Positions 18,325-24,133 of a stretch of 64,000 bases of DNA are shown here, in pieces (the first letter of the stretch is position 1; the number at the start of each line of letters is the position of its first letter). The translations under genes and the position numbers were made by a program. Where the stretch lies: positions 43,145 to 107,144 of the forward strand of contig CAZAVK010000003.1 of assembly GCA_964488645.1 (NCBI GenBank), in the 5' to 3' direction. This DNA comes from an uncultured Rikenella sp. (GTDB taxonomy: Bacteria; Bacteroidota; Bacteroidia; Bacteroidales; VadinHA17). Under the pieces are notes generated by a model. It was not told where the DNA came from, made no database searches, and saw only the letters and a program-made list of their open reading frames with translations.

Positions 18325-18783
18325 ATGGTTAAGCTACAGGACATTCGAATTGAGGCGACAGCTAAAACCCCTCAGGTTAGTTTCACGGCATCTACCGGAA
18401 ATCTAACATTTATTGGAAAGTCCCTCCCGGAAAACGCATCGGGCTTCTTCGAGCCCATTTACAAGTGGGCTGTGGAATATGCCAAGAATCCGGCTGAGAG
18501 TACCAACCTGAAATTCAATGTAGATTACTTCAATACCTCGTCCGTTATATGGATGGGTAAGATACTCAAGACATTAACCAAGATCAAGAAGAGTGAGCAC
18601 ATTCTGTTTGTGCATCTCTATTTTGACATCGAGGAGTATGACTCCATGGGTGAAGAGGATGTCAGGGAGTCTCTCTCGCCGTTTCTTGATGTCACCGCCG
18701 ATGCCACCTGTAGTGTGGGTATCAGGCTCTACGGCATTGATGAGGATGGTAACATACTGAAGGAGAACATGGTCCTTATCTGA
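18325..18783 (+). CDS. DUF1987 (SiaC-like regulatory phosphoprotein fold) protein
   Basis: The pattern I.ATAKTPQVSF...GNLTFIGKSLPENASGFFEPIYKWAVEY...LKFNVDYFNTSS...ILKTL matches the DUF1987/SiaC pattern (TP..F, G.S.PEN, W, Y.NTSS). Confidence 0.7.
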   Translation: MVKLQDIRIEATAKTPQVSFTASTGNLTFIGKSLPENASGFFEPIYKWAVEYAKNPAESTNLKFNVDYFNTSSVIWMGKILKTLTKIKKSEHILFVHLYFDIEEYDSMGEEDVRESLSPFLDVTADATCSVGIRLYGIDEDGNILKENMVLI

Positions 18784-18846: not shown

Positions 18847-20562
18847 ATGAAAAGAGTTAGTCTCATTCCTCTCATCTTAATTCTATCGGTTATGAACCTA
18901 TTCGGTCAGGGGCGCAACAGGCAGCCCGTTGTAGCCGGCAGTTTCTACCCTGCGTCGGGTGAGAAGCTCAGAGGCGACCTTGCAGGCTATTTTGCCTCTT
19001 TCAGTGCACCGGGCCGCAGTGCATTGATAAGGGCAATCATCGTTCCGCATGCCGGATACATTTATTCAGGACACACCGCTGCCGCCGGTTTTGCCGCCAT
19101 CCCTGCCGAGGCGGAGTATGACAATATCTTCCTAATCGGGGTGAGTCACCGGTACGGCTTTGACGGGGCTGCAGTCTTCACCTCGGGTGACCTGGTCACC
19201 CCGCTGGGCACCCTCAGGGTCAACCGTGAGCTGGGCGAACAACTGAAATCGACCGGCAAGTGGTTCATCACCAGGGATGATGCTCACGGGCCGGAGCACT
19301 CACTGGAGGTACAGTTGCCCTTCATACAGTACCACTTTAAAAAGGTGCCTCCGGTAATCCCGATTCTTATCGGCACCCGCAATACCAACATTCTGAAGGC
19401 ATTGGCTACCAGCCTGCAACCATGGTTCAATGAGCGCAATCTCTTTGTCATCAGCAGTGATTTCTCACACTACCCCTCATACGAGGATGCCCGTTATGCT
19501 GACCGGCTCGCCAGTGATGCCATCATCAGGGGCGATCCGAACGGTTTCCTGCGCACTATAAGAGAGATTGAGTCATCGGGTACCGCCGGCCTTGTCACCG
19601 CCATGTGCGGCTGGCCGGCAGGACTGGTGCTGCTTTACATGACAGAGAAGAGCGAGGGGCTCCGGTTCCGCAACGTCGAGTACACCAACTCGGGCGATTC
19701 GCCGATCGGCTCCCGCAGTGAGGTGGTGGGATACAATGCCATTATACTCGAGAAAAGAGGCGGCAGCGACACCGGCAGCGATGCCGCGAGTGGAAGACCG
19801 GGCGGGGCAGCCTCCACAACTGCCACGGGTTTCCGGGGCAGCATGCCACGAGGCCCGTTTGCCTACTCCGGCACAGATAATTGCCGTGAGAGCGGCAGCC
19901 GTCCGGCTGCCGCGACCGGTCCGATGAGCGGGGATACCCATCTCTCCGCCACGGCATCAGACCGATCTGCCCCGTGGCTGACCGCCGCCGGCGAGCCCTT
20001 CACCCTCACTCCGGCTGAGAAGAGGACGCTGCTGGAGATTGCGCGCGAATCGATCATGGCACAGCTGGATGGGCGCAAGCCGGCAGCCGTGTCTGAGGCG
20101 AGGCTTACGCCGAAGCTGAAGGAGCCACTCGGCGCCTTTGTGACCATCACGAAGAAGGGGCAGCTCAGAGGATGTATCGGCCGGTTCACCGCCACCGAGC
20201 CCCTGTGGCTGGTGGTCTCAACCATGGCCGGCGAGGCAGCTTTCAGTGACCCGCGGTTTACCCCGCTGAAAAGGTCTGAGTATCCCTCCATTGAGATTGA
20301 AATATCGGTCCTGGGACCGATGCAGAAGATCAGTGATATCAGTGAGATCCGGCTGGGTCATCACGGCATCTATATCAGAAAAGGCTACCGTTCAGGCACT
20401 TTCCTCCCCCAGGTGGCTGACGGACGCGACTGGAGCACAGAGGAGTTCCTGAGTTACTGCTCACGTGATAAGGCCGGCATCGGATGGGACGGCTGGCGTG
20501 ACAAGGATACCGAGATCTTTGTCTACGAAGCACTGGTCTTCAGTGAAAAGGAGACCCCATGA
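18847..20562 (+). CDS. fused AmmeMemoRadiSam system protein B (Memo-like) and protein A (AMMECR1-like), with an N-terminal signal peptide
   Basis: Signal peptide MKRVSLIPLILILSVMNLFGQG. The Memo part has VAGSFYPAS, IIVPHAGYIYSG, EHSLEVQLPF and SSDFSHY. A roughly 90-aa low-complexity G/S/A/P/T linker follows. The AMMECR1 part has GAFVTITKKGQLRGCIGRF and FSDPRF. Confidence 0.85.
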   Translation: MKRVSLIPLILILSVMNLFGQGRNRQPVVAGSFYPASGEKLRGDLAGYFASFSAPGRSALIRAIIVPHAGYIYSGHTAAAGFAAIPAEAEYDNIFLIGVSHRYGFDGAAVFTSGDLVTPLGTLRVNRELGEQLKSTGKWFITRDDAHGPEHSLEVQLPFIQYHFKKVPPVIPILIGTRNTNILKALATSLQPWFNERNLFVISSDFSHYPSYEDARYADRLASDAIIRGDPNGFLRTIREIESSGTAGLVTAMCGWPAGLVLLYMTEKSEGLRFRNVEYTNSGDSPIGSRSEVVGYNAIILEKRGGSDTGSDAASGRPGGAASTTATGFRGSMPRGPFAYSGTDNCRESGSRPAAATGPMSGDTHLSATASDRSAPWLTAAGEPFTLTPAEKRTLLEIARESIMAQLDGRKPAAVSEARLTPKLKEPLGAFVTITKKGQLRGCIGRFTATEPLWLVVSTMAGEAAFSDPRFTPLKRSEYPSIEIEISVLGPMQKISDISEIRLGHHGIYIRKGYRSGTFLPQVADGRDWSTEEFLSYCSRDKAGIGWDGWRDKDTEIFVYEALVFSEKETP

Positions 20563-22982
20563 CCTATCATGTCTTTCCAATCGGGATGACCTTTCTGGTC
20601 ATCTACCTCTTTTCGGCATACCTGTCATCTGCCGGATTCATTACCCGTGATTTGCACCGCCGGCTCTGGAACTGGTTTCTGCTCATCGGGTTCCTCACAG
20701 CAGGTATGTCGGGCATCTTCCTGGCTCTCAGGGCCAACTACCGCTGGGAGCTCCCTTTCACCGAGCAGTTGCTCCACTGGCATGTTGAGGCGGGTGCCAC
20801 AATGGTTGTACTGGCTGTCATTCACCTTATCCGTCACTTCAGGTATTATTCCGGGAGGAGCGGCAATGCCGTGTCTGCTGCTGCCTCTCCTCCTCCGGCA
20901 GCCGATCCCGCGGTTGCCGGCCGTCTAAGGCCGCTTCTGCTGCTTATAGGATTTGTCAGCTCCTCGGCGCAGTTTATCATGATGCGTGAGGCGGCCATCC
21001 TTGGTGGCGGCACCGAGGCCACTGCAGGGCTCTATCTCTGGCTCTGGCTCATCATCGCTGCCGGCGGGGCCCTGGCCGGCAGGCACTCTTCAACCGGTTC
21101 GGTGAAAAGGATGGTATGGACTCTTCTGGGGGCCACTGCCCTGGCCCCTGCCGCCTTCATAATGATGAATCTCATTATCCTCAATCCCGGCGAGACTCCC
21201 TCGCTGCTGCAGTCGGTGATCATCATTGCTGTCAGTGTTGCTCCGGTCACATTTCTGTCGGCCCTCATCTTCGTCCGCCTCTCCGACATAAGGCAGCAAG
21301 CAGGTCTCTCGGCTGCCGGCGGCAGCTTCGGCGCAGAAACAGCCGGATCGGTGGCAGCCGGCCTCTTCACCGCCCTCACGGTGTCACTGAAGATTCCCAA
21401 CTACCAGCTTTATATCCTGATCCTGCTCCTCGCCTCAGGCTGCGCAGCCTGGCTCCTGGGCTACCCCTTCCGGACAAGGATCATTGTCCTTCTGTCACTG
21501 ATACCGCTGCTGATACTGATTCTTATCTCACGGCCTGACCGGGTATTCAGGAGCCTGCTGCTGCAGGGTATAGTGGCAGAGAAGAGCATTGACACCCCGT
21601 TCGGCAATATCACCACGGGCAGTTACGGGGGTGAACAGGTTGTCTACTATGACCACCGCCCCCTCTTCTTTGAAGATGACATCATTACTGCTGAAGAGAA
21701 CATACATTATGCTCTCCTGCAACGGAGCAGCTATGACAGCGTGTTGCTTATCTCAGGCGGTCTCCGCAGGCATCTCCCCCATCTGGAGGCGTATCCGGTC
21801 AACTCCCTCACCTACCTGGAGATGGATCCCGGACTGATAGCAGCAGAAGGTGCCGCTGACACCCTCTGCGGAACGATGCGGGTCAGGGTTGTCAGAGATG
21901 ACCCCGTGACCTTCCTGAGAAAGGACAGAACTAGGTACGATGCCGTCATTCAGCTGATCCCTCCCCCATCAACGCTGTCAGTCAACAGGTTCTACACCAT
22001 TGAGTATTTCCGCATGATCAGGGATCACCTCTCGCCCGGGGGCATCTTCATGTCAACACCCATGCCCTGGTACAGCTACTCTCCTGAGAGCTACCGTAAG
22101 GGTTTCTCTCCGCTCTTCAACTCCCTCTCGGAGGTCTTCAGCCATATCTCCCTGATACCTGGCTCATTGCTCTACGTGGTAGCTTCAGATGATACGGTAA
22201 CCTCATCAGTGGTCCGGCTGAGCGATGAGAGAGGTGGCCCCGGAGAGTGGGTCAACCGTGACTACCTTGATGACAATGAGATAGAGCGGAACGCCGGGAA
22301 GGTACTGCTTCAGATTGACCGCGATGCCGGGCTGAACATGGCACTCAGGCCAAGGAGCACCCTCTTCACCAGTCTCCTGTCGCTTGAGCAGAGAGGGTTG
22401 CGCGGAGGAGCCATTGCCCTGCTAACGTTGCTGATAGTGATACCCTTTCTCTTCACAGGCAGGGGCGGATATGTGATGTTTGCCTCTTCAGCAGGCCTGG
22501 CAGGTTTCGGCATGATCATGATATTCATGCTCCAGGTGGTTGCAGGCAATATCTATATCCTCTCGGCGGTGATACTCACGCTGCTCATGGCCGGACTGGC
22601 TGCCGGGGCGGCGCTGGGTGACCGTATGCGGCTGCAGAGGCTTCTCACATGCTCTATGCTGCTATTCGCCCTCTTCACCGCCGCCGGTATGCTTGCCCCG
22701 CGCCTTATCACCATGGCGCCCCTGCCGGTGATGGCATTCATCATTATCTCCCTGACGGCAGCCGGAATCCTTACCGGTTCCATCTACCGCATACTTACCT
22801 CACGCAGCAAGGAGAGCATCACCGGCAATATCTATGCAGCCGACATGGCCGGATCAGCCCTGGGGTATCTCACTGCCGCCACCCTCATTGTTCCCCTGGC
22901 AGGCATGGCCGATGCATGCTTCATCATGGCACTGAATGTTTTGATTGCCGGTATTGTTGCATCTGTAACAAGAAAAGAGTAG
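20559..22982 (+). CDS. polytopic membrane protein (about 16-17 TM by eye) with a central spermidine-synthase-like (SAM-fold) domain
   Basis: 807 aa. About 10 hydrophobic segments come first, then a ~300-aa soluble region (VLLISGGLRRH...LEMDP...VRDDPVTFL...YDAVIQLIPPPS...FYTIEYF...LSPGGIF) resembling SpeE with its motifs degenerated, then 6-7 more TM segments. ATGA overlap with the upstream gene. Confidence 0.7.
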   Translation: MTYHVFPIGMTFLVIYLFSAYLSSAGFITRDLHRRLWNWFLLIGFLTAGMSGIFLALRANYRWELPFTEQLLHWHVEAGATMVVLAVIHLIRHFRYYSGRSGNAVSAAASPPPAADPAVAGRLRPLLLLIGFVSSSAQFIMMREAAILGGGTEATAGLYLWLWLIIAAGGALAGRHSSTGSVKRMVWTLLGATALAPAAFIMMNLIILNPGETPSLLQSVIIIAVSVAPVTFLSALIFVRLSDIRQQAGLSAAGGSFGAETAGSVAAGLFTALTVSLKIPNYQLYILILLLASGCAAWLLGYPFRTRIIVLLSLIPLLILILISRPDRVFRSLLLQGIVAEKSIDTPFGNITTGSYGGEQVVYYDHRPLFFEDDIITAEENIHYALLQRSSYDSVLLISGGLRRHLPHLEAYPVNSLTYLEMDPGLIAAEGAADTLCGTMRVRVVRDDPVTFLRKDRTRYDAVIQLIPPPSTLSVNRFYTIEYFRMIRDHLSPGGIFMSTPMPWYSYSPESYRKGFSPLFNSLSEVFSHISLIPGSLLYVVASDDTVTSSVVRLSDERGGPGEWVNRDYLDDNEIERNAGKVLLQIDRDAGLNMALRPRSTLFTSLLSLEQRGLRGGAIALLTLLIVIPFLFTGRGGYVMFASSAGLAGFGMIMIFMLQVVAGNIYILSAVILTLLMAGLAAGAALGDRMRLQRLLTCSMLLFALFTAAGMLAPRLITMAPLPVMAFIIISLTAAGILTGSIYRILTSRSKESITGNIYAADMAGSALGYLTAATLIVPLAGMADACFIMALNVLIAGIVASVTRKE

Positions 22983-23014: not shown

Positions 23015-24133
23015 TTGAAAAAGAAAGATAACAAGATAAGCAGGAGAACTTTTGCCCGGCGCGGATCACTGGCCCTGGCAGCCGGGGTCGTTGCTCCGTT
23101 TCCTGCCGGTGCCCTGAGGCCTGCACCTGCCGAGCGGCTCGCCATGTTCCAGGAGCAGAGCCCGCGGGGAGTGGTATGTCTCATCTGCCCGAATGCCTGT
23201 ACTCTCAAGGATGGCGAAGTGAGTGACTGTCGCAACCGGATAGCCAGGAAATCAAAGCTTTATACCATGGCTTTCGGCAATCCATGTGCTATCAACATCG
23301 ATCCTGTCGAGAAGAAGCCGCTCTTCCATTTCCTGCCTGGAACAACCTCGTTTTCCATTGCTACTGCCGGGTGTAACCTGTCATGTCTCAACTGCCAGAA
23401 CTGGACCATCTCACAGACCTCTCCCGACAAGACCCGTAACTATGACATGCCTCCTTCGAGTGTGGTGTCTGAGGCTGCCGCGGCGGGTTGCCGCACCATC
23501 TCATATACCTACTCCGAGCCGGTCACATTTTACGAGTATGTTTATGAAACCTCCAGGCTGGCGCACAGTGCCGGCATCCGGAACATCATGGTCTCCAACG
23601 GCTATATCAACCACGACCCGCTGAAGCAGCTCTGCCGCTATATCGACGCAGCAAATATCGATCTCAAGTCATTCAGTGACAGCACCTATCTCAAGCTCAC
23701 CGGGGGCCGGCTGCAGCCGGTACTGGATACTCTGAAGACCTATCGCGATGAGGGTGTCTGGCTTGAGATCACCAACCTGATCGTGCCGGGCTGGACAGAC
23801 AAGCCGGACGAAATCAAACGGTTATGCAACTGGCTGGCAACAAACGGTTTCAGTGAGACGCCCCTCCACTTCAGCCGCTTCCAGCCACTCTATAAGCTGG
23901 AACACCTCCCCCCGACACCGGCGGCCATCCTGAAGAAAGCAGCCGAACTCGCTGCAGCAGAAGGAATCAGATATGTCTATATCGGCAATATGCCGGGCGC
24001 CGGCGCAGAGGATACGATCTGTCCCTCCTGCGGGAACAGACTGGTTGACCGCAGCGGGTTCAGGATCGTATCATCCGCCATCAGGAACGGAAAATGCAGC
24101 TGTGGCACCAGTATACCAGGGGTGTGGAGCTGA
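23015..24133 (+). CDS. AmmeMemoRadiSam system radical SAM enzyme (AmrS). The annotated TTG start adds a Tat-type signal; the alternative start is ATG 23144.
   Basis: An N-terminal Cys cluster VVCLICPNAC...DCRNR and the radical SAM motif GCNLSCLNCQNW. The N-terminal 43 codons encode MKKKDNKISRRTFARRGSLALAAGVVAPFPAGA. Confidence 0.8.
   Translation: MKKKDNKISRRTFARRGSLALAAGVVAPFPAGALRPAPAERLAMFQEQSPRGVVCLICPNACTLKDGEVSDCRNRIARKSKLYTMAFGNPCAINIDPVEKKPLFHFLPGTTSFSIATAGCNLSCLNCQNWTISQTSPDKTRNYDMPPSSVVSEAAAAGCRTISYTYSEPVTFYEYVYETSRLAHSAGIRNIMVSNGYINHDPLKQLCRYIDAANIDLKSFSDSTYLKLTGGRLQPVLDTLKTYRDEGVWLEITNLIVPGWTDKPDEIKRLCNWLATNGFSETPLHFSRFQPLYKLEHLPPTPAAILKKAAELAAAEGIRYVYIGNMPGAGAEDTICPSCGNRLVDRSGFRIVSSAIRNGKCSCGTSIPGVWS

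What the first reader, a model, noticed from the sequence alone, without database searches (positions are those of the whole stretch)
20559..22982. 807-aa membrane protein: His-bearing 3-TM head, MFS-like TM bundle, degenerate spermidine-synthase domain, second TM bundle
The soluble domain (about residues 335-640) aligns by eye to SpeE, but its catalytic and binding motifs are changed:
- GGGDGG becomes SGGLRR.
- The DxxDP aminopropyl-transfer motif becomes LIPPPS.
- VEID becomes LEMD.

Canonical aminopropyltransferase chemistry is therefore doubtful, although (dc)SAM or nucleoside binding may survive.

The first three TM segments carry paired histidines (LLHWHVEAG and VIHLIRH), reminiscent of b-type haem or metal ligands. 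My manual positive-inside count places the Arg/Lys-rich loops RDLHRRLW, GRHSSTGSVKRM, GDRMRLQRL and YRILTSRSKES in the cytoplasm. That puts the SpeE-like domain on the non-cytoplasmic side. This topology call is low confidence.
Basis: partly seen in the sequence, partly recalled or inferred. Interest (0 to 1): 0.55.

Follow-up and report, generated by a model that had tools for sequence, protein, structure and literature searches.

The report
Membrane partner of Memo-AMMECR1-radical-SAM system
This 807-residue membrane protein carries a spermidine-synthase-shaped domain that has lost its catalytic residues, and it belongs to a widespread, uncharacterised family that almost always sits next to the enigmatic Memo/AMMECR1/radical-SAM genes, which ties that system to the membrane and probably to electron transfer.

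Summary
ORF 20559-22982 (+) encodes 807 aa with 17 predicted TM helices: a 3-TM head, then 7 TM, a SpeE-fold domain, then 7 TM. The soluble domain is SpeE-like by sequence and by fold, but the dcSAM-selecting loop and both catalytic Asp positions are gone.

New findings:
- The two bundles are homologous parallel 6-TM repeats (hhalign 98.4%), each with one extra helix. This gives an MFS-like 6+1 | domain | 1+6 core.
- The family is large: 3,055 clusters (50% identity) at E<1e-30. It occurs in Bacteroidota, Chlorobi, Desulfobacterota, Planctomycetota and DPANN archaea.
- In 11 of 12 distant contexts, and in every assessable Bacteroidales locus, the gene lies beside a radical SAM gene and a Memo(+AMMECR1) gene.
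- An accessory redox module comes in three forms: an N-terminal head with invariant H75-x13-H89 (weak DUF4405 match), a C-terminal Fer4_5 fusion, or a separate Fer4_5 gene.
- Family-wide positive-inside counts (24.3 vs 8.5 K+R) put the SpeE-like domain outside the cytoplasm.

Best reading: a dedicated membrane, redox-coupled fourth subunit of the Amr system, not an aminopropyltransferase. Its chemistry is unknown.

The parts
20559..22982 (+). Whole gene: 807-aa, 17-TM membrane protein, the proposed fourth component of the Amr cluster
   Evidence: ORF list and translation. A 100% identical protein, P0001, is in public data. AF2 model with pLDDT 81.8.
20559..20852 (+). 3-TM head (residues 1-98), cytochrome-b-like. 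H75 and H89 are invariant (H-x13-H on TM3), with H93 and H33 also conserved.
   Evidence: Helices 5-24, 30-61 and 68-98. His conservation. Pfam DUF4405 E=4.9e-4, 21 bits, below the 26.7 cut-off; 5 of 37 heads match. Absent from about half of the family.
20853..20924 (+). Disordered, variable, K/R-rich linker (residues 99-122), predicted cytoplasmic
   Evidence: pLDDT below 50 for residues 99-114. Variable length with low-complexity inserts in homologues. Mean K+R 4.25.
20925..21455 (+). N-lobe: first 6-TM repeat (TM4-TM9, residues 123-299) with conserved Q138, R143, E144, E153, W163 and E260
   Evidence: Helices. Homology to the C-lobe: hhalign 98.4%, E=8.4e-15; reversed control 2.9%. Residue conservation. 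Foldseek top hits are mostly MFS lobes, none significant.
21468..21560 (+). Extra TM10 (residues 304-324) plus amphipathic helix 327-334 with invariant P326/D327/R331. It carries the chain to the other membrane face.
   Evidence: AF2 helices. Hydropathy 2.6. Invariant columns.
21573..22391 (+). SpeE-fold domain (residues 339-611) without aminopropyltransferase catalytic residues: S399-G-G-L-R-R, E421xD423-P, D448, D461, L466-I-P-P-P470
   Evidence: Pfam PF01564 29.1 bits. PDB phmmer 1UIR. Foldseek E=1.5e-10. Family residue statistics. Predicted non-cytoplasmic.
22407..22454 (+). Extra TM11 (residues 617-632), which returns the chain to the first face
   Evidence: AF2 helix. Hydropathy 2.2.
22470..22970 (+). 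C-lobe: second 6-TM repeat (TM12-TM17, residues 638-804) with conserved Q659, G663, M677, Y759, D762 and P779
   Evidence: AF2 helices. hhalign repeat. Conservation.
18847..20562 (+). amrB-amrA fusion (Memo + AMMECR1), translationally coupled upstream neighbour
   Evidence: PF01875 177 bits and PF01871 173 bits. TIGR04336 222 bits and TIGR04335 171 bits, both above cut-off. ATGA overlap.
23015..24133 (+). amrS, the AmmeMemoRadiSam radical SAM enzyme, downstream neighbour
   Evidence: TIGR04337 335.6 bits against a cut-off of 220. PF04055.

Best explanation
The gene encodes the dedicated membrane subunit of a four-gene version of the AmmeMemoRadiSam (AmrA/AmrB/AmrS) system.

Shown:
- Its core is an internal duplication of a 6-TM unit, arranged as two parallel lobes as in MFS transporters.
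- One extra helix follows the first lobe and one precedes the second. A SpeE-fold domain is inserted between these two helices.
- That domain keeps the positions that in class I SAM enzymes hold the ribose and adenine (E421, D448, S-G-G loop). It has lost the dcSAM-selecting Asp and both catalytic Asp residues, so it does not make polyamines by the canonical mechanism.

Inferred:
- The lobes' termini and all K/R-rich loops face the cytoplasm, which puts the SpeE-like domain on the outer face.
- The core acts as a transporter-like or substrate-presenting device for a membrane-soluble or exported molecule handled by the cytoplasmic AmrS/AmrAB enzymes. The SpeE-like domain binds that ligand or transfers it on the far side.
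- The N-terminal 3-TM head is a b-type cytochrome module. It probably forms by dimerisation, with H75 and H89 of each chain ligating two haems.
- The head exchanges electrons between the membrane quinone pool and the complex. In other lineages the same role is filled by a fused or adjacent NapH-type Fer4_5 module.
For: Linkage:
- In 80 Bacteroidales loci the order amrBA > this gene > amrS is kept wherever the contig allows. AMMECR1 is present in 76 loci and AmrS in 75; every gap coincides with a contig end.
- 11 of 12 distant members with unrelated flanking genes have Radical_SAM and Memo(+AMMECR1) within 4 kb, often with overlapping or abutting reading frames. They come from Bacteroidota, Chlorobi, Proteobacteria/Desulfobacterota, Planctomycetota, Woesearchaeota and Nanoarchaeota.

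Family size: 9,917 hits at E<1e-3 and 3,055 at E<1e-30 among representatives of 50% identity clusters.

Core repeat: hhalign 98.4%, E=8.4e-15 over 165 columns; reversed control 2.9%. About 35 of the top 50 Foldseek hits for bundle 1 are MFS-fold transporters. NCBIfam NF037959 'fused MFS/spermidine synthase' matches relatives.

SpeE fold and lost catalytic residues.

Topology: K+R 24.3 vs 8.5 over 144 sequences. Headless members start with K/R-rich N-termini.

Redox module:
- Invariant H75 and H89, plus H93.
- DUF4405 is the only recurrent Pfam hit for the head.
- DUF4405 and FezC bind haem b, and FezC is modelled as a homodimer (PMC11334425).
- DUF4405 corresponds to half a cytochrome b561 (PMC5898192).
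- Fer4_5 is fused C-terminally in about 60 listed relatives and is a separate gene in the cluster of L091.
Against: - The chemistry of AmrA/B/S is itself unknown, so the functional role is inferred from architecture and neighbourhood only.
- Conserved SAM-type binding residues sit oddly with an extracytoplasmic location, where no SAM is expected.
- The topology rests on the positive-inside rule and on the helix count of a predicted model. No dedicated topology predictor or experiment was available.
- The DUF4405 match is below Pfam's threshold and is seen in only 5 of 37 heads.
- No MFS fold hit is individually significant (best E=0.49).
- About half of the family lacks any fused redox module, so electron transfer cannot be essential to the core function.
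- One archaeal member (L090) has no Amr genes within 8 kb.
Confidence: 0.5

Rival explanations
1. It is a genuine membrane-anchored polyamine aminopropyltransferase (PRK03612-type SpeE) that makes spermidine or a related polyamine from dcSAM.
For: The SpeE fold is clear and the best matches are all aminopropyltransferases. PRK03612 is the top NCBIfam hit and its alignment includes TM helices. JGI annotates relatives as 'spermidine synthase'. A minority of the family keeps Asp at position 466 (12 of 144), and P0377 has DLADP.
Against: The target has L466 and P469 in place of both catalytic Asp residues, and SGGLRR in place of GGGDGG. It scores 50.6 against a 472 cut-off, 34.1 against 260 and 23.6 against 249.55. 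The domain is predicted on the non-cytoplasmic side, away from dcSAM. The gene is linked to Amr genes, not to speD or polyamine genes; only 2 of 12 contexts have an arginase- or ADI-type gene.
Confidence: 0.04
2. The real topology is the opposite. The SpeE-like domain faces the cytoplasm and works directly with AmrS as a SAM-, SAH-, MTA- or 5'-deoxyadenosine-binding (or methyl-transferring) module on a membrane-embedded substrate.
For: SAM-type binding positions are strongly conserved: S399 121, G400 136, E421 133 and D448 138 of 144. Half of the family has Asn at position 466 followed by Pro (NLPxP), in the loop where amino-methyltransferases carry (D/N)PPY (the motif comparison is from general knowledge). 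The partners AmrS and AmrAB are cytoplasmic. The genes are translationally coupled.
Against: This would put 4-5 K/R-rich loops on the outside and break an otherwise 5:1 positive-inside bias. It also requires TM8 and TM16 not to span the membrane, although AF2 models them as 22-27-residue helices in both the full and partial models. In MFS-type lobes both ends of each 6-TM unit are cytoplasmic (general knowledge), so one extra helix leads outward.
Confidence: 0.2
3. It is an autonomous transporter, for example for polyamines or another cationic solute. Its inactive SpeE-like domain serves as an external ligand receptor or lid, and its adjacency to Amr genes reflects co-regulation rather than a shared machine.
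For: The core has two homologous 6-TM lobes and the top fold hits are MFS-dominated. The domain keeps an acidic pocket (E379, E380, E421, D448, D461) suited to amines. One member lacks Amr neighbours. Arginase and DDAH/ADI genes are near two clusters.
Against: Adjacency is kept across bacterial and archaeal phyla with otherwise unrelated flanks, frequently with overlapping reading frames. That is stronger than expected for mere co-regulation. A plain solute transporter does not explain the recurrent acquisition of cytochrome-b-like or Fer4_5 modules.
Confidence: 0.15
4. The Amr adjacency is just inherited synteny in one Bacteroidales lineage and says nothing about function.
For: In the 80 closest loci the whole region, including Ffh, ArgS, LigA and DUF6913, is syntenic.
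Against: Distant members in other phyla and in archaea keep only the Amr genes as neighbours, while all other flanking genes differ.
Confidence: 0.02

Closest known systems
Polyamine aminopropyltransferase SpeE (PF01564/TIGR00417); closest structure T. thermophilus triamine/agmatine aminopropyltransferase 1UIR/3ANX; membrane-anchored form PRK03612 (NF002956)
   Same: It has the same two-part fold, an N-terminal beta domain plus a Rossmann domain (Foldseek E=1.5e-10, TM-score 0.64 on the target). It shares the conserved acidic residue after beta2 (E421), the D448 'DA' position and D461. PRK03612-type proteins also carry N-terminal TM helices that align to TM8-TM10 here.
   Different: It lacks the GGGDGG Asp and both Asp residues of DxxDP. 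Scores are far below every equivalog cut-off. It has a second 7-TM bundle after the domain and, in this clade, a 3-TM His-rich head. It is predicted to face away from the cytoplasm. It is linked to Amr genes rather than to polyamine genes.
NCBIfam NF037959 'fused MFS/spermidine synthase' (annotation-only subfamily, no experimental work found)
   Same: Relatives at 22-27% identity reach this model: P0137, P0150, P0210, P0250 and P0269 score 40.6-49.7 bits against a cut-off of 40. NCBI names several homologues this way. The TM-core-plus-SpeE-like idea is the same.
   Different: The window protein itself gives no NF037959 hit at E<=0.01. The model (480 positions) covers only one lobe plus the domain. 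The name says nothing of the Amr linkage, the second lobe or the redox modules.
DUF4405 / FezC / MsrQ-type membrane b-type cytochromes (PF14358, di-haem cytochrome b clan)
   Same: The head gives a weak profile match over TM2-TM3 (positions 2-65 of 66). It has invariant His residues on a TM helix spaced 14 apart, as in di-haem cytochromes b (spacing rule from general knowledge). DUF4405 and FezC bind haem b, and FezC is modelled as a homodimer (PMC11334425).
   Different: It scores below the gathering threshold, and only 5 of 37 heads match. It has three helices, not six. It is fused to a large transporter-like protein. Haem binding is untested.
AmmeMemoRadiSam three-gene system (TIGR04335 AmrA, TIGR04336 AmrB, TIGR04337 AmrS)
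   Same: All three core components are present and score above cut-off immediately beside the gene.
   Different: The system is described as three genes. Here and in many lineages a fourth, membrane gene is intercalated or adjacent. From memory, Burroughs et al. 2019 (J Biol Chem 294:10211) extended the Memo gene contexts toward nucleotide-base and isoprenoid modification. That paper could not be read here, so whether it lists this gene is unknown.
14-TM MFS transporters with two extra central helices (DHA2-type; from general knowledge, not tested)
   Same: The plan is 6 + 2 + 6 helices, with two homologous lobes and both termini on the same side.
   Different: Here a 270-residue enzyme-fold domain is inserted between the two central helices. 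No MFS signature motifs or significant MFS hits were found.

Membership tests
Polyamine aminopropyltransferase (SpeE) | SpeE fold: N-terminal beta-sheet domain plus Rossmann-type domain | tested here: met
   PF01564 scores 29.1 bits against a gathering score of 22.9. Foldseek to 1UIR gives E=1.5e-10 over 294 aligned columns; the top 50 hits are all aminopropyltransferases.
Polyamine aminopropyltransferase (SpeE) | Gly-rich loop GGGDGG whose Asp selects dcSAM over SAM | tested here: not met
   SGGLRR aligns to GGGEGA of 1UIR. The family consensus is S-G-G-x-x-G with no conserved acidic residue.
Polyamine aminopropyltransferase (SpeE) | Catalytic DxxDP motif (Asp that deprotonates the attacking amine, and a second Asp) | tested here: not met
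   The target has Q465-L-I-P-P-P470. In the family, position 466 is N 73, L 14, D 12 of 144, and position 469 is E 50, P 35, D 25.
Polyamine aminopropyltransferase (SpeE) | Score above the NCBIfam equivalog cut-offs | tested here: not met
   NF002956 50.6 vs 472; NF002010 34.1 vs 260; TIGR00417 23.6 vs 249.55.
Polyamine aminopropyltransferase (SpeE) | Catalytic domain has access to cytoplasmic dcSAM | tested here: inconclusive
   The positive-inside count (24.3 vs 8.5 K+R) places the domain outside. No experimental topology or dedicated predictor was available.
Fused MFS/spermidine synthase (NF037959) | HMM score at or above the 40-bit cut-off | tested here: not met
   The window protein gives no hit at E<=0.01. 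Five of nine sampled relatives pass with 40.6-49.7 bits.
Fused MFS/spermidine synthase (NF037959) | MFS-type core: two homologous 6-TM lobes in parallel orientation | tested here: met
   hhalign of TM4-9 against TM12-17 gives 98.4%, E=8.4e-15 over 165 columns; the reversed control gives 2.9%.
Fused MFS/spermidine synthase (NF037959) | Structural similarity to solved MFS transporters | tested here: inconclusive
DUF4405 / di-haem cytochrome b clan | Pfam PF14358 gathering score | tested here: not met
   21.0 bits against 26.7, E=4.9e-4. 5 of 37 heads match at E<=0.01, best 5.7e-5.
DUF4405 / di-haem cytochrome b clan | Conserved transmembrane His residues placed to ligate haem | tested here: met
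   H75 is present in 73 of 73 heads, H89 in 73 of 75, H93 in 72 of 76 and H33 in 61 of 75. H75 and H89 are invariant in 37 diverse heads and lie 14 residues apart on helix 68-98.
DUF4405 / di-haem cytochrome b clan | Haem b binding | not testable with these tools
   This needs expression and a pyridine haemochromagen assay or UV-vis spectrum, as was done for DUF4405 and FezC in PMC11334425.
AmmeMemoRadiSam system | AmrA (AMMECR1), AmrB (Memo) and AmrS (radical SAM) encoded together | tested here: met
   TIGR04335 171.2 vs 99; TIGR04336 222.4 vs 26; TIGR04337 335.6 vs 220, at 18847-20562 and 23015-24133.
AmmeMemoRadiSam system | This gene is a conserved component (gene-neighbourhood conservation beyond local synteny) | tested here: met
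   11 of 12 distant contexts across bacterial phyla and DPANN archaea, and all assessable loci among the 80 Bacteroidales loci.
AmmeMemoRadiSam system | Physical or functional interaction with AmrA/B/S | not testable with these tools
   This needs co-purification, multimer modelling or genetics.

The most novel reading that the evidence does not exclude
The cluster may be a membrane-lipid modification machine. By analogy with the adenosylating radical SAM enzymes HpnH and MqnE, AmrS (with AmrA/B) would build an adenosyl- or nucleoside-bearing isoprenoid or quinone-type lipid at the inner leaflet. The MFS-like two-lobe core would flip that lipid. The catalytically disabled SpeE-fold domain on the outer face would bind its adenosyl head through the retained ribose and adenine positions (E421, D448). 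The cytochrome-b or Fer4_5 module would balance the electrons with the quinone pool.

This reading would reconcile three observations: the conserved nucleoside-binding residues, the extracytoplasmic location, and the isoprenoid/nucleobase link earlier predicted for Memo systems. It is pure inference. AmrS is most similar to glycyl-radical activases, not to HpnH or MqnE.
Probability: 0.07. Interest if true: 0.9.

Novelty: new variant of a known kind. Interest (0 to 1): 0.6.

Why it matters
Memo and AMMECR1 are conserved from archaea to humans, and, as far as I recall, their human homologues are disease-linked. No literature search here returned a biochemical function for the prokaryotic AmrA/AmrB/AmrS system.

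This work shows that in thousands of lineages the system comes with a dedicated membrane protein. That protein looks like a two-lobe transporter, displays a disabled SpeE-fold domain, and repeatedly recruits membrane electron-transfer modules. This gives concrete, testable handles:
- look for a membrane-soluble or exported substrate;
- look for quinone-pool coupling;
- test the isolated domain for adenosyl or amine ligands.

It also warns that 'spermidine synthase' annotations on this large family are almost certainly wrong. If the predicted topology holds, it would be an unusual case of a SAM-enzyme fold placed outside the cytoplasm.

Tried and rejected
- **Shallow repeat test.** The first internal-repeat test, with the 23-sequence alignment, gave only 6% probability. 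It was superseded by the 144-sequence test at 98.4%.
- **Fe-S module as topological anchor.** I tried to use the Fer4_5/CX3CP module of P0377 as an anchor. The module turned out to be C-terminal, not N-terminal as I first assumed, and its own helix count is ambiguous, so it was dropped.
- **Link to polyamine metabolism.** Arginase (L087) and DDAH/ADI (L086) genes occur in only 2 of 12 contexts. I treat this as chance.
- **Head against PDB sequences.** A profile of the head found nothing (best E=1.4, an amino-acid transporter).
- **Literature.** Searches for AmmeMemoRadiSam, AMMECR1 with radical SAM or isoprenoid, membrane-bound spermidine synthase and fused MFS spermidine synthase found no functional study. 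Burroughs et al. 2019 (PMC6664185) is not held, so its content is cited from memory only.
- **Rejected reading.** 'Adjacency is only local synteny' was considered and rejected on the distant contexts.

Full report
**1. Checking the observation**

The ORF at 20559-22982 (+) is real and encodes 807 residues. Its ATG overlaps the stop codon of the upstream gene (ccccATGAcc).

The neighbours are:
- upstream, a Memo+AMMECR1 fusion (18847-20562): TIGR04336 222 bits and TIGR04335 171 bits;
- 32 nt downstream, the AmmeMemoRadiSam radical SAM enzyme (23015-24133): TIGR04337 335.6 bits against a cut-off of 220.

The rest of the region is housekeeping: ArgS, Ffh, FolD, LigA, SecA and ferritin.

An AlphaFold2 model built on 23 homologues is usable (pLDDT 81.8, pTM 0.83). 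It shows three helices in a head (5-24, 30-61, 68-98), a disordered linker, seven helices (123-324), an alpha/beta domain (339-611) and seven more helices (617-804).

**2. The soluble domain**

The domain is SpeE-like well beyond chance:
- Pfam PF01564 scores 29.1 bits against a gathering score of 22.9.
- phmmer to T. thermophilus SpeE 1UIR gives E=2.2e-7.
- Foldseek gives E=1.5e-10 and TM-score 0.64 on the target, and all 50 top PDB hits are aminopropyltransferases.

SGGLRR replaces GGGEGA/GGGDGG, LEMD replaces VDID, and QLIPPP replaces DLTDP. The protein scores far below all SpeE equivalog cut-offs, for example 50.6 against 472.

I aligned 144 diverse family representatives to see which positions are kept:

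| Position(s) | Role in canonical SpeE | State in family (of 144) |
|---|---|---|
| 466 | first catalytic Asp | N 73, L 14, D 12 |
| 469 | second Asp | E 50, P 35, D 25 |
| P470 | Pro of DxxDP | 142 |
| S399 / G400 / G401 | Gly-rich loop | 121 / 136 / 107 |
| E421 | ribose hydroxyls | 133 |
| D448 | adenine | 138 |
| D461 | conserved Asp | 139 |
| E379 / E380 / H383 | EE..H motif | 144 / 140 / 141 |

Canonical aminopropyl transfer is therefore lost, most completely in this Bacteroidales clade. A nucleoside-type or amine-binding pocket is probably kept; that last point is inference from conserved positions.

**3. The transmembrane core**

The two bundles are not unrelated. With the deep alignment, TM4-9 (122-298) and TM12-17 (635-800) align over 165 columns at hhalign probability 98.4% and E=8.4e-15. 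A reversed-sequence control gives 2.9%. A shallow alignment had given only 6%.

The core is thus two homologous, parallel 6-TM lobes. One extra helix (TM10) follows the first lobe and one (TM11) precedes the second, and the SpeE-fold domain is inserted between them.

Each lobe carries the same conserved polar set: Q138/R143/E153 in the first lobe against Q659 in the second, and Y/F257-x-x-E260 against Y759-x-x-D762.

A separate model of bundle 1 (pLDDT 77.8) gave no significant PDB match (best E=0.49). However, about 35 of the top 50 hits are MFS-fold transporters aligned over one lobe (TMq 0.41-0.54). NCBI's model 'fused MFS/spermidine synthase' (NF037959) reaches its cut-off on relatives but not on this protein. 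'MFS-like' is therefore reasonable but not proven.

**4. Topology**

I used the model's helices and the 144-sequence alignment to count charged residues in the loops.
- The other side carries 8.5, or 4.7 without the flanks of the large domain.
- Headless homologues begin with K/R-rich N-termini.

In MFS-type lobes both ends of each 6-TM unit are cytoplasmic (general knowledge), so one extra helix leads outward. I rate this at about 75%. The conserved SAM-type residues are the main counter-argument, and no dedicated predictor or experiment was available.

**5. The head**

H75 and H89 are invariant, H93 is at least 90% conserved, and H33 is present in 61 of 75 heads.

H75 and H89 lie 14 residues apart on one helix. 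This is the spacing of the two haem ligands on a helix of di-haem cytochromes b (general knowledge).

The head matches Pfam DUF4405 weakly: 21 bits against 26.7, covering model positions 2-65 of 66. Among 37 diverse heads, 5 match DUF4405 at E<=0.01, and no other family matches more than two.

DUF4405 and the ferrosome protein FezC, which that study groups with it, have been shown to bind haem b, and FezC is modelled as a homodimer (PMC11334425). DUF4405 corresponds to half of a cytochrome b561 (PMC5898192). A haem-binding head that dimerises is therefore a fair hypothesis, but it is untested.

**6. Family and neighbourhood**

The 120 best homologues are all from uncultured Bacteroidales or Bacteroidota. 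In 80 related genome loci the order SiaC-like > amrBA > this gene > amrS > ligA is kept wherever the contig allows. Because Ffh, ArgS and LigA are syntenic too, this counts as one lineage.

A profile search of 1.84 billion cluster representatives found 9,917 relatives at E<1e-3 and 3,055 at E<1e-30. Three architectures appear:
- core only, about 710 aa: Bacteroidota and DPANN archaea;
- head plus core, about 830 aa: Bacteroidota and Chlorobi;
- core plus a C-terminal Fer4_5/CX3CP module, about 1,000 aa: Desulfobacterota and Planctomycetota.

I looked at 12 distant members whose flanking genes are all different. Eleven have a Radical_SAM gene and a Memo(+AMMECR1) gene within 4 kb, usually directly adjacent and often overlapping. 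One archaeal member (L090) has none within 8 kb. In the archaeal locus L091 a separate 238-aa Fer4_5 gene lies in the same cluster.

The linkage to Amr genes is thus independent of local synteny. A membrane redox module has been recruited in at least three ways.

**7. Interpretation**

- **Shown:** the anatomy, the loss of SpeE catalytic residues, the internal duplication, the family's size and spread, and the near-constant Amr adjacency.
- **Inferred:** that the protein is the membrane subunit of a four-part Amr machine; that its two-lobe core transports or presents a membrane-soluble or exported molecule; that the SpeE-fold domain binds it on the outer face; and that the head (or Fer4_5) exchanges electrons with the quinone pool.
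- **Not known:** the substrate and the chemistry. No functional study of AmrA/B/S was found. The comparative-genomics paper that first extended Memo contexts (Burroughs et al. 2019) could not be read.

Rivals and my estimates:

| Rival | Probability | Note |
|---|---|---|
| Real aminopropyltransferase | 0.04 | contradicted by motifs and scores |
| Cytoplasm-facing SAM- or 5'-dA-binding domain | 0.2 | contradicted by charge bias |
| Autonomous transporter with a receptor domain | 0.15 | does not explain the conserved coupling or the redox modules |
| Mere inherited synteny | 0.02 | refuted by the distant contexts |

**8. Novelty and verdict**

The family is known only as an automatic annotation: 'spermidine synthase', 'fused MFS/spermidine synthase', '4Fe-4S binding protein' or 'hypothetical'. 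As far as the held literature shows, these points have not been described:
- the two-lobe-plus-inserted-domain plan;
- the family-wide loss of catalytic residues;
- the probable outer-face location;
- the alternative redox modules;
- the tight association with Memo/AMMECR1/radical SAM genes across bacteria and DPANN archaea.

I class it as a new variant of a known kind, with interest 0.6. It is not a new kind of system, but it is a useful and unexpected handle on a long-standing orphan system.

Noticed in passing
window 18325-18783 (+): A SiaC-family (PF09345, 81.9 bits) small gene sits directly upstream of amrBA. It is present in 73 of the 80 Bacteroidales loci; six of the seven without it stop short of that region, and in L069 no match was found. 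At 84-94% aa identity in the closer loci it is about as conserved as Ffh and far more than the Amr genes (64-81%) or the membrane protein (50-69%). It is absent from the distant clusters in other phyla.
   Followed up: partly
L083, L087, L088, L089, L092 (P0377, P0432, P0423, P0443, P0430); P0377 residues ~720-999: In Desulfobacterota, Planctomycetota and Proteobacteria the family carries a C-terminal Fer4_5 module with CX3CP motifs (CHVCP, CFHLCP, CEMLCP) instead of the N-terminal His-rich head. P0377 also keeps a canonical-looking DLADP motif.
   Followed up: partly
L091 15638-16354 (-): In one archaeal cluster a stand-alone 238-aa Fer4_5 protein is encoded next to the radical SAM and Memo+AMMECR1 genes. 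This suggests that the Fe-S membrane module is a partner which can be either fused or separate.
   Followed up: no
L085 11312-12188; L086 12185-13010; L091 10931-11937: TatA and TatC genes lie beside the cluster in all three Amr-linked DPANN archaeal loci. In L091 they sit between the membrane gene and Memo+AMMECR1. This could be shared DPANN synteny or a hint of cofactor-protein export.
   Followed up: no
L090 (P0458, 710 aa): This is the one family member sampled with no Memo, AMMECR1 or radical SAM gene within 8 kb on either side. Its neighbours are a CARDB/CW_binding_2 surface protein and a zinc-ribbon protein.
   Followed up: no
L084 1584-3782 (-): In a Prolixibacteraceae locus a second, 732-aa radical SAM protein is encoded divergently just upstream of Memo+AMMECR1. 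A 23S_rRNA_IVP gene is inserted between amrBA and the membrane gene.
   Followed up: no
L055-L080 vs window 20559-22982: The membrane protein evolves much faster than its partners. In the more distant Bacteroidales sub-clade it is 32-36% identical to the window protein, while AmrS is 59-64%, AMMECR1 48-57% and Memo 44-52%.
   Followed up: partly
window 20853-20924 (residues 99-122) and homologues P0002, P0034, P0056: The linker between head and core is disordered (pLDDT below 50) and variable in length. Some homologues have 20-40-residue Gly/Ser/Pro/Thr-rich, partly repetitive inserts.
   Followed up: no
P0114, P0116 (686 aa), L045: Even within the Bacteroidales clade some members lack the head and start at the first lobe (MRALLFITGF...), so the head is a separable module.
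   Followed up: partly
L087 12006-13049 (+); L086 4727-5572 (+): An arginase-family gene sits downstream of the Planctomycetota cluster, and a DDAH/ADI-family gene sits two genes upstream of the Nanoarchaeota cluster. These are the only hints of guanidino or polyamine metabolism, in 2 of 12 contexts.
   Followed up: partly
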